Source of the DNA: a virus
Lineage: Duplodnaviria; Heunggongvirae; Uroviricota; Caudoviricetes
Length of the DNA stretch: 64,000 nt
IMG/VR virus record: IMGVR_UViG_3300033067_000531
Direction: 5' to 3' (one strand)
Below, in pieces: positions 352-4,256 of the stretch. The notes beneath the pieces are model-generated. The model made no database searches. It saw nothing but the letters and a program-made list of their open reading frames with translations, and was not told the DNA's origin. Every line of letters starts with the position of its first letter. The first letter of the stretch is position 1. A program made the position numbers and the translations under genes.

Positions 352-504
352 TACCATTTAATTAGTGTTATCGTGTCAATTTGTCAACAATGTAGCTAGC
401 ACTGACGAGCGAATAACAGTTATCTCAGAATCTTAGTGGTCGCACCCTCCGATTCGTAGTCCATACGTCTATGAACCTACCTTGATAACACTAATTAAAT
501 GGTA
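352..504 (-). ncRNA. Candidate structured ncRNA closed by a 21-bp perfect stem
   Basis: TACCATTTAATTAGTGTTATC (352-372) is the exact reverse complement of 484-504. The ~110-nt interior lies between tRNA-Glu and tRNA-Lys. Confidence 0.6.
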
Positions 505-880: not shown

Positions 881-1113
881 ACTAACTTTTTACGTGAACT
901 ACGGTGAGTTTCATCACGGCGCATAGTCCAGTTGTAAGAATTACCATCAGGTAATGTCTTGTTTTCTACAGCATCAACACCGAAAGCACCAACAATCTCT
1001 GTTGTACCATCGGTGATAGTTACGAACTTGCCGTAACCTTTCGCAAAATTTATTGCATCACTCAATGTTGCACATGCGTTCAACACTGTGTTTTCATATT
1101 TTACTTTCCACAT
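877..1113 (-). CDS. Hypothetical protein within the tRNA cluster (78 aa)
   Basis: ORF track 877-1119; the ATG at 1113 (MWKVKYE...) is the likelier start. It fills the gap between two tRNAs on the coding strand. Confidence 0.7.
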   Translation of the reverse strand: MWKVKYENTVLNACATLSDAINFAKGYGKFVTITDGTTEIVGAFGVDAVENKTLPDGNSYNWTMRRDETHRSSRKKLV

Positions 1114-1126
1114 AATCAACTTTCTT

Positions 1127-1486: not shown

Positions 1487-1575
1487 TGGAGGAGGGATGG
1501 CAGAATCGAACTCCAACCGCTTTCGCAGTCCATCTGTTTTCAAGACAGTGCTGGTCCCAGACCAGATAACCCTCC
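1487..1575 (-). tRNA. tRNA-Ser(TGA), atypical architecture
   Basis: Loop CT-TGA-AA, long variable arm, GTTCGATTC T-loop, CCA end; 5-bp D stem and one extra nucleotide in the T/acceptor 3' strand. Confidence 0.82.
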
Positions 1576-1585
1576 ATTGTTTGTA

Positions 1586-1676
1586 CCATATCAAAACCCA
1601 TTAGCGGAATCGAACCGTTGCGCCTCCTGCAATAGGAAGCGGATGCCCACAGAGGTTCTAATGAGCTTTGATATGG
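1586..1676 (-). ncRNA. tRNA-mimic ncRNA candidate (T-loop plus 19-bp closing stem)
   Basis: CCATATCAAAGCTCATTAG pairs with CTAATGGGTTTTGATATGG (with G-U pairs). The interior has CGG-TTCGATT-CCG and a CTTCC-TATTGCA-GGAGG hairpin. Confidence 0.65.
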
Positions 1677-1749
1677 CAGGGGTTATCAGATTCGAACTGA
1701 TGATGACGATTTCAAAGACCGTTGCCTTAGGCCACTAGGCGAAACCCCA
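1674..1749 (-). tRNA. tRNA-Gln(TTG)
   Basis: TGGGGTT/AACCCCT acceptor, loop CT-TTG-AA, GTTCGAATC, G73, CCA end. Confidence 0.93.
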
Positions 1750-1787: not shown

Positions 1788-1838
1788 ATTGTATCAGAAC
1801 CAAAGATTCTGGCAACTACACTGTTGTTTTGAAACAAC
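1788..1838 (-). promoter_or_regulatory. sigma70-type promoter TTGCCA-16-TACAAT with upstream GTTG-N8-CAAC palindrome
   Basis: -10 at 1788-1793, -35 at 1810-1815, palindrome at 1823-1838. The downstream leader resembles the one at 577-620. Confidence 0.7.
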
Positions 1839-2095: not shown

Positions 2096-2599
2096 TTATT
2101 TCCACTTAATTGGTTGTGAAACGATGGGTAGTGATGGATTCCTGAACCCCTGGAAGACTTCCCAGAGACATTCCTCAACCGCAAATTTGGTTAGTAAGCC
2201 ATCTTCACGTCCATGAGCTTCTATTTCCCATGGATGATGCCAATAGTCCAGAAGGTCTGAATTGATACGTTTGCCACGCCAGATGGATAAGTCATCATTC
2301 GTTTCGTGATAGACTAACTGTTTAACATGAACCATCTCATGTGCCAGTGTTTCCAGTATATTATGAGCACCGATACCAGGATGAATCTCGATTAGAAACT
2401 CTCGTGGTTCATTCTTTGTGTTGTAACCTTCAGCACCACAAGAACCATAGTTTGGCATCTTACCGTCAAATGATATGATAGTTGTGATGTTGTTTCTTAT
2501 TCTGGTATTGGGTATGAGTTCTTTTGCGTAGAATAAGGCTGCACGCTCCACGTAAGGTTTGAAATCACCATCCGGACAGTTGCGAATCTTAATCTTCAT
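2096..2599 (-). CDS. Zincin-like metallopeptidase (HEXXH)
   Basis: LAHEMVHVKQ motif and downstream PWEIEAH; CTAAATA late-promoter-like motif at 2617-2623. Confidence 0.75.
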   Translation of the reverse strand: MKIKIRNCPDGDFKPYVERAALFYAKELIPNTRIRNNITTIISFDGKMPNYGSCGAEGYNTKNEPREFLIEIHPGIGAHNILETLAHEMVHVKQLVYHETNDDLSIWRGKRINSDLLDYWHHPWEIEAHGREDGLLTKFAVEECLWEVFQGFRNPSLPIVSQPIKWK

Positions 2600-3829: not shown

Positions 3830-4216
3830 ATGGCAAATTGTACTATCTGTAATAAACTACTTTCTGGCCGTCAAACAAAATTCTGTGGACGTAAGTGTAG
3901 AAACGGTTATATAAATTCTAAACATAAATCCTACGACCTACAAAAAGACAAAGGAATGAAGAACAAACTTAAACTTTTGGACTTAAAGGGTAAGTATTGT
4001 CAAGTGTGTGGTTATAACAAAAATACGGCGGCATTATGTTTTCATCACACAAGAGACAAATTATTTGGAATTGATATTAGGAAATGTTCCAACACAAGTT
4101 GGAAAAAATTGGTGGAAGAAGCCGACAAATGTATCGTTCTTTGTCAAAATTGTCACATGGAAGAACATTATCCGGATCATATGGTACGACCTGCTGGATT
4201 CGAACCAGCCCCGTAA
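3830..4216 (+). CDS. HNH homing endonuclease (free-standing)
   Basis: CQVCGY...LCFHH...KCIVLCQNCHMEEH HNH/zinc-finger pattern with an N-terminal CxxC..FCGRKC motif. AAGGAG RBS; the only convincing plus-strand gene. Confidence 0.85.
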   Translation: MANCTICNKLLSGRQTKFCGRKCRNGYINSKHKSYDLQKDKGMKNKLKLLDLKGKYCQVCGYNKNTAALCFHHTRDKLFGIDIRKCSNTSWKKLVEEADKCIVLCQNCHMEEHYPDHMVRPAGFEPAP

Positions 4217-4256
4217 GAATTATGAGTTCTCGGCACTACCTCTATGCTAAGGTCGT
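4182..4256 (-). tRNA. tRNA-Ile2(CAT, lysidine type)
   Basis: ACGACCT/AGGTCGT acceptor, loop CT-CAT-AA; the GCTGGTTC..CCAGCAGG T-arm matches the Ile2 type rather than Met. Confidence 0.85.

What the first reader, a model, noticed from the sequence alone, without database searches (positions are those of the whole stretch)
1586..1676. tRNA-mimic (Y-RNA-like) element with T-loop and 19-bp stem that also pairs with the upstream tRNA's CCA
Seen in sequence: the minus strand reads CCATATCAAAGCTCATTAG-[hairpin CTTCC-TATTGCA-GGAGG]-[CGG-TTCGATT-CCG]-CTAATGGGTTTTGATATGG. The stem's first CCA is the CCA of tRNA-Gln. It has a canonical TTCGATT T-loop, but the acceptor is replaced by a long helix with no free CCA. 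Established: bacterial and phage YrlA Y RNAs are tRNA mimics with a T-arm and a long stem. Inference: a non-chargeable tRNA mimic, possibly a decoy for tRNA-targeting defence nucleases or modification enzymes. No Ro60 gene is in this window.
Basis: partly seen in the sequence, partly recalled or inferred. Interest (0 to 1): 0.7.

Follow-up and report, generated by a model that had tools for sequence, protein, structure and literature searches.

The report
Stem-clamped tRNA-mimic RNA in phage tRNA array
Between two tRNA genes of this uncultured T4-like lake phage lies a gene for a small RNA that copies the "elbow" of a tRNA and is clamped shut by a 19-bp stem starting on the previous tRNA's CCA end; it belongs to a large phage RNA family (one conserved stem, hundreds of different inserts) that I could not find in print, it is not a Y RNA, and its job is unknown.

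Summary
On the minus strand, 1676-1586 forms a 19-bp stem whose first three bases are the CCA of tRNA-Gln. The stem encloses a 16-nt GUGGGCA linker, a 7-bp hairpin and a 3-bp T arm with a UUCGAUU loop that sits directly on the stem's 3' strand (fold z = -5.25).

It is neither a tRNA, a tmRNA nor a YrlA/Y RNA by ARAGORN or Rfam. It is one member of a family I recovered in 140 uncultured-phage loci: 244 copies, 208 distinct. These share one conserved, covarying 17-19-bp stem (CCAUAUAAAAACACAUU/AGUGUGUUUCUAUAUGG) and carry 157 unrelated kinds of insert.

Of the 244 copies, 138 start exactly on a tRNA's CCA. In five whole contigs, pattern matches that pair into hairpins lie only in one short stretch per contig. 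Thirty-five inserts carry a T loop, always in the tRNA sense, and 27 of these abut the stem as in a tRNA.

The window's insert type recurs in six other distinct sequences, with compensatory changes in the stem and in the T stem. Ro60-type genes are absent from two near-complete genomes that carry the family.

Most likely this is a small non-chargeable RNA cut out of the tRNA transcript, whose insert mimics the tRNA elbow. The decoy idea is untested.

This scan had already reported the same stem family several times on other DNA.

The parts
1788..1815 (-). Promoter-like site TTGCCA-16-TACAAT (TG-extended -10) about 39 nt upstream of tRNA-Gln; likely start of the transcript that carries the element
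   Evidence: consensus scan only; no terminator-like site between it and the Ser tRNAs
1674..1749 (-). tRNA-Gln(UUG); its CCA (1676-1674) is the first three bases of the element's stem
   Evidence: ARAGORN; Rfam RF00005 53.9 bits
1658..1676 (-). P1 5' strand (handle), CCAUAUCAAAGCUCAUUAG
1642..1657 (-). Linker J1 AACCUCUGUGGGCAUC with a D-loop-like GUGGGCA, conserved in all members of this insert type (GYGGGCA)
   Evidence: alignment A2; the D-loop role is inferred
1621..1641 (-). P2 hairpin CGCUUCC-UAUUGCA-GGAGGCG in the place of an anticodon arm; its tip varies (extended by a CAC/GUG helix with a triloop in relatives), so it is not an anticodon loop
1605..1617 (-). T arm CGG-UUCGAUU-CCG directly abutting the P1 3' strand; becomes CAG/CUG (compensatory) in L237
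1586..1604 (-). P1 3' strand (handle), CUAAUGGGUUUUGAUAUGG
1491..1575 (-). Downstream tRNA-Ser(UGA)-like gene, 10 nt after the element; its RNase P site would define the element's 3' side
   Evidence: Rfam tRNA-Sec model 45.7 bits (cut-off 47), anticodon UGA; missed by ARAGORN; canonical tRNA-Ser(UGA) at this position in relatives
354..502 (-). Second CCA-anchored, stem-closed RNA of the window (after tRNA-Glu): a perfect 19-bp stem with a different sequence and a 111-nt four-hairpin interior
   Evidence: z -6.09; 11 homologues, 22 of 44 pairs with compensatory changes

Best explanation
The element is a gene for a small, non-chargeable structured RNA of a 'conserved stem + exchangeable insert' family that lives inside the tRNA arrays of uncultured T4-like (mostly lake) phages. 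It is probably co-transcribed with tRNA-Gln and the Ser tRNAs from the promoter-like site at 1815-1788. The 19-bp stem brings its two ends together directly on the CCA of tRNA-Gln. The host cuts that mature tRNA-Gln's 3' end and the next tRNA's 5' end (RNase P), possibly helped by an RNase III-type cut in the stem, would then release an RNA of about 85-91 nt whose paired ends resist exonucleases. The insert of this copy mimics the acceptor/T-arm 'elbow' of a tRNA: the T arm is stacked on the stem, there is a D-loop-like GUGGGCA, and a dispensable hairpin replaces the anticodon arm. It therefore most likely works by binding something that recognises the tRNA elbow, as bait, sponge or recruiter. 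Shown here: the structure, its covariation and strand, family membership, position flush with tRNA ends, and conservation at tRNA level. Inferred: transcription, the cleavage route, stability and the binding function.
For: Stem and fold. Family: 244 sense copies in 140 loci, 208 distinct sequences, 157 insert clusters. 138 of 244 copies start on the CCA of the upstream tRNA, and 84 end within 10 nt of, or inside, the next tRNA. Stem covariation: position 7 AU 97/UA 94/GC 12/CG 3; position 16 UG 142/CG 40/UA 24. Own partner arms give 17.22 of 18 pairs against 15.51 +/- 0.056 for shuffled partners. RNA strand: G-U 241 against A-C 99 on the tRNA strand; T-loop motif 35 sense, 0 antisense. In 5 whole contigs the pattern matches that pair up into hairpins lie within one short stretch per contig, with only isolated one-mismatch singles elsewhere; in the fetched loci the copies sit among tRNA genes. 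T arms abut the 3' strand of the stem in 27 of 35 T-loop inserts, and their stems covary. This insert type: 7 distinct sequences, 96.6% paired, 8 double changes including the T stem CGG/CCG to CAG/CUG. It is 83-88% identical to the window, while same-type tRNAs in those loci are 77-88%. No tRNA, tmRNA or other Rfam call. Promoter-like site with no terminator-like site before the element. A second CCA-anchored stem-closed RNA in the same array has strong covariation. CCA-anchored stems follow 195 of 2282 tRNAs against 10 of 2345 random anchors.
Against: Some copies have only a 3-nt loop (L018, L053, L077), so the stem can exist without any insert, which fits a pure processing signal. Inside this insert type the T arm and P2 are nearly invariant, so most covariation evidence is in P1. 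RNAalifold prefers pairing GUGGG with the T-loop region over the 3-bp T arm. No partner protein was identified. My copy set was partly collected with stem-sequence patterns and a >=15/17-pair filter, which inflates stem conservation somewhat.
Confidence: 0.55

Rival explanations
1. The stem is the functional part. It is a processing or insulator signal (for example a host RNase III site) that separates neighbouring tRNAs in the long precursor, and the inserts, including this tRNA-like one, are tolerated passengers without a function of their own.
For: The stem sequence is far better conserved than the inserts. Insert-less copies exist. Stems start on CCA and often end on the first bases of the next tRNA. 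The lower half of the stem is pure A/U and the upper half contains G/C, which suits a mid-stem cut followed by melting (direct reading). Other stem sequences with the same CCA anchoring exist.
Against: Insert types are conserved across phages as well as tRNA genes are. They show internal compensatory changes. T loops occur only in the sense orientation and mostly stacked on the stem. Most tRNA junctions in the same arrays need no such stem (195 of 2282). No phage RNase III gene was found in 5 contigs, so a host enzyme would be needed.
Confidence: 0.2
2. It is a selfish, mobile palindromic DNA element (MITE/REP-like) that targets tRNA CCA ends. The inverted arms are terminal repeats and the interior is arbitrary captured DNA, here a tRNA fragment.
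For: Presence/absence polymorphism at the same tRNA junction, for example empty Gln-Ser junctions in L026, L050 and L073. The same insert type lies behind different tRNAs: Gln here, Glu in L085, Lys in L090. There are tandem arrays and 1-5 copies per locus. Ends are palindromic, CCATAT...ATATGG.
Against: Only 1-3 copies per whole contig, clustered in one short stretch. Copies within one genome have unrelated interiors, unlike MITE bursts. G-U over A-C asymmetry and sense-only T loops point to selection on the RNA. No transposase or target duplication was seen at filled versus empty sites.
Confidence: 0.1
3. It is a Y RNA in function: the partner of the Ro60-like (DUF2828-type) protein that, according to earlier notes of this scan, is encoded at the far end of the same tRNA array.
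For: It has a long stem formed by the two ends plus a tRNA-like module, as in Y RNAs (PMC4201824). In the closest relative, L001, a DUF2828 homologue starts right after the tRNA array, and 1 of 5 whole contigs has DUF2828.
Against: No YrlA or Y RNA hit. No GNCGAA motif, and the module order is not permuted (direct reading). The family is present in 100%- and 94%-complete genomes without TROVE or DUF2828. No such gene lies in the 64-kb window. The RNAs noted beside that protein use a different handle (helix plus ACAGCA; earlier scan notes).
Confidence: 0.07
4. It is a decayed tRNA pseudogene trapped between leader and trailer.
For: The module order (linker, hairpin, 3-nt spacer, T arm, closing helix) is that of a tRNA, and the T loop is canonical.
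Against: The tRNA model gives no hit at E<=10, and ARAGORN finds none. The non-tRNA features are conserved at 83-88% in other phages with compensatory changes. No bona fide tRNA was found inside such arms in 244 copies.
Confidence: 0.03

Closest known systems
Phage T4 small stable RNAs RNAC and RNAD (species 1 and 2) of the T4 tRNA gene cluster
   Same: Small non-tRNA RNAs encoded inside a T4-type tRNA cluster, directly abutting tRNA genes (T4 annotation). RNAC carries a canonical T arm (CCGGGUUCGAAUCCCGG) just before a 3' end that pairs with the 5' end. Their function is still unknown (PMC3014915; PMC9697503).
   Different: No sequence similarity. T4 has no conserved 17-19-bp closing stem, no overlap with the upstream CCA and no family of exchangeable inserts; it has one copy of each.
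YrlA / bacterial and phage Y RNAs bound by Ro60 (Rsr) (Rfam RF02553; Chen et al. 2014, PMC4201824)
   Same: Non-chargeable tRNA mimic with a T arm, mounted on a long stem made from the RNA's two ends; also found in phages.
   Different: The covariance model gives no hit. There is no GNCGAAN0-1G motif. The T arm is adjacent to the 3' strand (natural tRNA order) rather than in the permuted T - acceptor loop - D order. No dependence on a Ro60-type gene.
RNase III processing stems (leader-trailer helices around 16S/23S rRNA; phage T7 early-mRNA sites) - comparison from my own knowledge
   Same: A long helix formed by sequences flanking a structured RNA, placed so that cutting it frees both the enclosed RNA and its neighbours.
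   Different: Here the helix is only 17-19 bp, is anchored on a tRNA CCA, has a conserved sequence shared by many copies, and encloses small unrelated inserts. Cleavage has not been shown.
HDV-like theta ribozymes next to phage tRNAs (Kienbeck et al. 2024, PMC10879173)
   Same: A structured RNA element placed immediately 3' of viral tRNA genes and proposed to take part in tRNA 3'-end maturation.
   Different: Theta ribozymes have a conserved catalytic core. Here the interior is hypervariable or absent, and no ribozyme family matched.
tRNA-like domain of tmRNA
   Same: A T arm stacked on an acceptor-like helix formed by the two ends, with no anticodon arm.
   Different: No free 3' CCA, no alanine identity pair, no mRNA-like part; ARAGORN finds no tmRNA. 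Only a 17-nt T-loop fragment matches a tmRNA model, at 8.3 bits.

Membership tests
YrlA / Y RNA (Rfam RF02553) | Match to the YrlA covariance model | tested here: not met
   cmscan of 1400-1850 at E<=10 lists no Y RNA or YrlA hit; none at gathering score in the window
YrlA / Y RNA (Rfam RF02553) | Encoded next to a Ro60 (TROVE) gene | tested here: not met
   No DUF2828 homologue in the window by tblastn. TROVE found in 0 of 5 and DUF2828 in 1 of 5 whole contigs that carry the stem family, and both absent from the two that are >=94% complete. A DUF2828 gene does lie at the far end of the array in relative L001, several kb away.
YrlA / Y RNA (Rfam RF02553) | GNCGAAN0-1G motif in the 5' strand of the end-to-end stem (PMC4201824) | tested here: not met
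   The 5' strand is CCAUAUCAAAGCUCAUUAG and contains no such motif
YrlA / Y RNA (Rfam RF02553) | Permuted tRNA-like domain: T arm, then closed acceptor stem-loop, then D arm | tested here: not met
   The order here is linker, hairpin, T arm, 3' strand of the stem; the long stem takes the acceptor position
tRNA (RF00005) | Cloverleaf with 7-bp acceptor, D arm, anticodon loop with U33 and free NCCA | tested here: not met
   No ARAGORN or Rfam tRNA hit, even at E<=10. The loop UAUUGCA has A at position 33 and is replaced by an extended hairpin in relatives. The 3' end is buried in the helix.
tmRNA | tRNA-like domain with 3' CCA plus tag reading frame | tested here: not met
   ARAGORN finds no tmRNA; only an 8.3-bit T-loop fragment matches
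CCA-anchored, stem-closed cassette RNAs of phage tRNA arrays (undescribed; defined here and in earlier reports of this scan) | Stem of 17-19 bp matching CCAUAUNNAARCNCAYU / ARUGNGUUUNNAUAUGG in register | tested here: met
   The window copy aligns ungapped with 55 other distinct copies and is paired at 19 of 19 positions
CCA-anchored, stem-closed cassette RNAs of phage tRNA arrays (undescribed; defined here and in earlier reports of this scan) | Stem starts on the CCA of the preceding tRNA, inside a phage tRNA array, on the tRNA strand | tested here: met
   The window copy starts on the CCA of tRNA-Gln (3-nt overlap). 138 of 244 family copies do the same.
CCA-anchored, stem-closed cassette RNAs of phage tRNA arrays (undescribed; defined here and in earlier reports of this scan) | Transcribed and released as a discrete RNA | not testable with these tools
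Only a promoter-like site and the absence of a terminator-like site are available.
T4 RNAC/RNAD | Sequence or model homology to T4 rnaC or rnaD | tested here: not met
   No blastn hit of the element to any GenBank phage, T4 included. The only shared feature is architectural, a T arm next to the 3' end.

The most novel reading that the evidence does not exclude
The conserved stem is the handle of an undescribed phage RNA-display system. An unknown phage or host protein binds or cuts the handle, and the exchangeable inserts are baits. This copy would present an uncleavable, unchargeable tRNA elbow/minihelix that soaks up a bacterial tRNA-directed defence enzyme (nuclease or modifying toxin), or diverts a tRNA-processing enzyme, during infection.
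Probability: 0.15. Interest if true: 0.85.

Novelty: new variant of a known kind. Interest (0 to 1): 0.6.

Why it matters
Phage tRNA arrays are usually read as codon-usage or anti-defence tRNA supplies. This family would show that they also carry many non-tRNA small RNAs built on one standard stem and matured through the tRNA-processing route. T4's RNAC and RNAD have been known for decades, and their roles are still described as unknown (PMC3014915, PMC9697503). A large, comparable family with clear structural classes, including tRNA-elbow mimics such as this one, gives a way to ask what such RNAs do. If the inserts are baits or recruiters, this would be an RNA-based layer of phage-host conflict. 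If the stem is only a processing signal, it is a new solution to tRNA 3'-end maturation, alongside the theta ribozymes.

Tried and rejected
1. YrlA/Y RNA membership was rejected.
2. tRNA pseudogene was rejected.
3. Self-cleaving ribozyme: no Rfam ribozyme hit, and copies without an insert exist.
4. Antisense regulator: the best complementarity of the insert to the 64-kb window is at chance level. For 10-mers there were 8 matches against 5.4 expected, and the 11-mers are only T loops of other tRNAs.
5. Cultured relatives: megablast and blastn of the region, the element and a three-copy array against 50,697 GenBank phage records gave only tRNA or chance hits. The cyanophage S-CRM01 has only chance pattern matches inside genes.
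6. A phage-encoded RNase III or CCA-adding enzyme as the dedicated processing factor: none found in 5 contigs.
7. The neighbouring conserved 167-aa HExxH protein (2096-2599) has no Pfam family, and I could not link it to the element.
8. The metagenome scan with a degenerate linker pattern returned mostly chance matches and one new copy, L342.
9. The whole-genome search and the sequencing-run search were unavailable for this window.

Full report
**1. What is there**

The window is part of an uncultured T4-like phage. It encodes clamp loader gp44/62, RegA, dCMP deaminase and Hsp20 (ORFs). No similar GenBank phage exists, and no whole genome is held.

Its first 4.3 kb carry a minus-strand tRNA array. 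The order is Gln(UUG) 1749-1674, the element, a Ser(UGA)-like gene 1575-1491, then Ser(GCU), Ser(GGA), Ile(UAU), Cys, Glu, Lys, Tyr and Asp.

Its parts are:
- P1 5' strand, 1676-1658. Its CCA is the tRNA-Gln 3' end.
- Linker AACCUCUGUGGGCAUC, 1657-1642.
- A 7-bp hairpin with loop UAUUGCA, 1641-1621.
- CAA.
- T arm CGG-UUCGAUU-CCG, 1617-1605.
- P1 3' strand, 1604-1586.

P1 has 19 pairs, two of them G-U. The fold energy is -40.3 kcal/mol, z = -5.25 against shuffles.

A promoter-like site (TTGCCA-16-TACAAT) lies at 1815-1788, with no terminator-like site before the Ser tRNAs. Co-transcription with the tRNAs is therefore likely but not shown.

**2. What it is not**

- ARAGORN calls no tRNA or tmRNA here.
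- Rfam gives nothing at gathering score.
- At E<=10 Rfam gives only a microRNA-precursor model, which simply recognises a long hairpin, and an 8-bit tmRNA T-loop fragment. There is no tRNA, YrlA or ribozyme hit.

**3. The family**

I fetched loci around homologues of the neighbouring 167-aa gene. In about 30 related phages a hairpin starts on the CCA of tRNA-Gln, with stem CCAUAUAAAAACACAUU/AGUGUGUUUCUAUAUGG. Its interior ranges from a 3-nt loop to about 100 unrelated nucleotides.

Pattern scans of IMG/VR added many more loci. Over all fetched loci I found:
- 244 sense-strand copies in 140 loci, 208 distinct, falling into 157 insert clusters of which 125 are singletons.
- 138 of 244 copies begin exactly on the CCA of an upstream tRNA: Lys 49, Gln 36, Glu 20, Leu 11, Ile 7 and others.
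- 84 copies end within 10 nt of the next tRNA or on its first bases.
- 1-5 copies per locus.

In five whole contigs, the pattern matches that pair up into hairpins lie within one short stretch per contig. Elsewhere there are only isolated one-mismatch singles.

No bona fide tRNA lies inside the arms.

**4. The stem is a selected RNA helix**

Compensatory changes are frequent. Position 7 is AU 97, UA 94, GC 12, CG 3. Position 16 is UG 142, CG 40, UA 24. Position 8 is an A-C mismatch in 77 copies, GC in 66 and AU in 39.

An element's own arms make 17.22 of 18 pairs. Arms shuffled between elements make 15.51 +/- 0.056.

On the tRNA strand G-U pairs outnumber A-C mismatches 241 to 99, and the reverse would hold on the other strand.

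One caveat applies. Copies were collected with a >=15/17-pair filter, and partly with stem-sequence patterns. However, 75% of shuffled arm pairs would pass that filter too.

**5. This copy's insert is a conserved tRNA-elbow mimic**

Six other distinct sequences share the window's insert type: L085, L088, L090, L113, L342 and the more distant L237. They lie behind tRNA-Glu or tRNA-Lys, or second in a tandem.

The element is 83-88% identical to the window over about 100-119 nt. Same-type tRNAs in those loci are 77-88% identical.

On the seven-sequence alignment, the P1 + P2 + T-arm structure has 96.6% of cells paired. Eight pairs are changed on both sides: six in P1, one in P2, and one in the T stem (CGG/CCG to CAG/CUG). 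No shuffle of 500 reaches this, and slid controls give 41-52% paired with no double changes.

The tip of P2 varies. It is a 7-nt loop here, an extra CAC/GUG helix with a triloop in most relatives, and a different hairpin in L237. It is therefore not an anticodon loop. The linker GYGGGCA and the T arm are constant.

Across the whole family, 35 distinct inserts carry GUUCRANYC, all in the tRNA sense. In 27 of them the T stem abuts the 3' strand of P1, as the T stem abuts the acceptor stem in a tRNA, and the T stems covary.

Some inserts are tRNAs minus the anticodon arm. A few have the T arm before a D-like arm.

The architecture 'T arm stacked on the closing helix' is thus a recurrent insert design. 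The D-loop role of GUGGGCA is my inference. RNAalifold instead pairs it with the T-loop region.

**6. Y RNA?**

Chen et al. (PMC4201824) define YrlA by four features: a neighbouring Ro60 gene, a GNCGAAN0-1G motif in the stem, a T arm - acceptor loop - D arm order, and a covariance model. None is met here.

TROVE is absent from five whole contigs carrying the stem family. DUF2828 is present in only one of them. It is absent from the 100%- and 94%-complete genomes and from the window.

Earlier notes of this scan report a DUF2828 Ro60-like gene with its own differently handled RNAs just before the window's start. Consistent with that, the closest relative L001 has a DUF2828 homologue right after its tRNA array. 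A functional link is therefore not excluded, but it is not needed by the family.

**7. A general design**

The window holds a second element, 502-354 on the minus strand. It lies behind tRNA-Glu, has a perfect 19-bp stem of another sequence and gives z = -6.09. It has 11 homologues, and 22 of its 44 pairs show compensatory changes.

In all loci, 195 of 2282 CCA-ending tRNAs are followed by a CCA-anchored stem with >=16 of 17 pairs. Only 10 of 2345 random anchors are. Of the 195, 136 use the main stem sequence and about 59 use others.

**8. Mechanism**

The anchoring on CCA and on the next tRNA's first bases points to release by the tRNA-maturation machinery. The strongly conserved, A/U-rich-below, G/C-containing-above stem suggests either a protective clamp or a cut site for a double-strand RNase.

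I found no phage RNase III or CCA-adding enzyme, so host enzymes would act.

The insert would then be a free, end-protected RNA showing a tRNA elbow without anticodon or CCA. What it binds is unknown, and the decoy idea remains a hypothesis. I saw no antisense target in the window.

**9. Comparison and novelty**

The nearest described things are these:
- T4 RNAC and RNAD. They lie in the tRNA cluster, RNAC has a T arm next to its 3' end, and their roles are unknown.
- YrlA.
- RNase III processing stems.
- Theta ribozymes beside phage tRNAs.

I found no paper on this stem family. That search covers open-access text only.

The scan itself had already reported the same stem family repeatedly on other DNA. 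The new points here are that this copy's insert is a conserved tRNA-elbow mimic, that such inserts are a recurrent class within the family, and that the YrlA reading fails its defining tests.

Noticed in passing
window 354-502 (-): A second CCA-anchored, stem-closed RNA lies behind tRNA-Glu. It has a perfect 19-bp stem (CCAUUUAAUUAGUGUUAUC/GAUAACACUAAUUAAAUGG) and a 111-nt interior with four hairpins, ending 8 nt before tRNA-Lys. Eleven homologues exist, and 22 of 44 pairs show compensatory changes.
   Followed up: partly
window 1491-1575 (-): A tRNA-Ser(UGA)-like gene is missed by ARAGORN but scores 45.7 bits on the tRNA-Sec model (cut-off 47). It has a Sec-like fold: roughly 8-bp acceptor plus 4-bp T stem, 6-bp D stem and 6-bp anticodon stem, with U-U and G-G mismatches. 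This recalls the 8/4 'allo-tRNAs' of PMC5389517. Copies 95% and 84% identical occur in L017 and L003, whereas other relatives have a canonical tRNA-Ser(UGA) at this position.
   Followed up: partly
window 881-1126 (-), between tRNA-Ile and tRNA-Cys: A small ORF (74-80 aa, MWKVKYENTV...) with a plausible ribosome-binding site sits inside the tRNA array. It has no Pfam family.
   Followed up: partly
window 2096-2599 (-): A 167-aa protein with an HExxH motif and no Pfam family is encoded just upstream of the tRNA array. Relatives of it were confirmed at 566 IMG/VR loci, and in the examined loci a tRNA-Gln-led array lies just downstream.
   Followed up: partly
L150:13913-14302 (+): One phage contig carrying the stem family also encodes a betaproteobacterial-type, permuted tmRNA (137 bits). 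This hints at betaproteobacterial hosts for part of this phage group.
   Followed up: no
L105:3054-3172 (-) (phage T4 rnaD): T4 RNAD ends with ...CACAGCAGAAACGGCGCACC, which contains the ACAGCA string that earlier notes of this scan call the handle of RNAs beside phage Ro60-like genes.
   Followed up: no
window 3830-4216 (+): A Cys-rich, HNH-like small ORF (CxxC ... CQNCH) overlaps the end of tRNA-Met (4182-4256) on the opposite strand. It has no Pfam hit and may be a homing endonuclease remnant.
   Followed up: no
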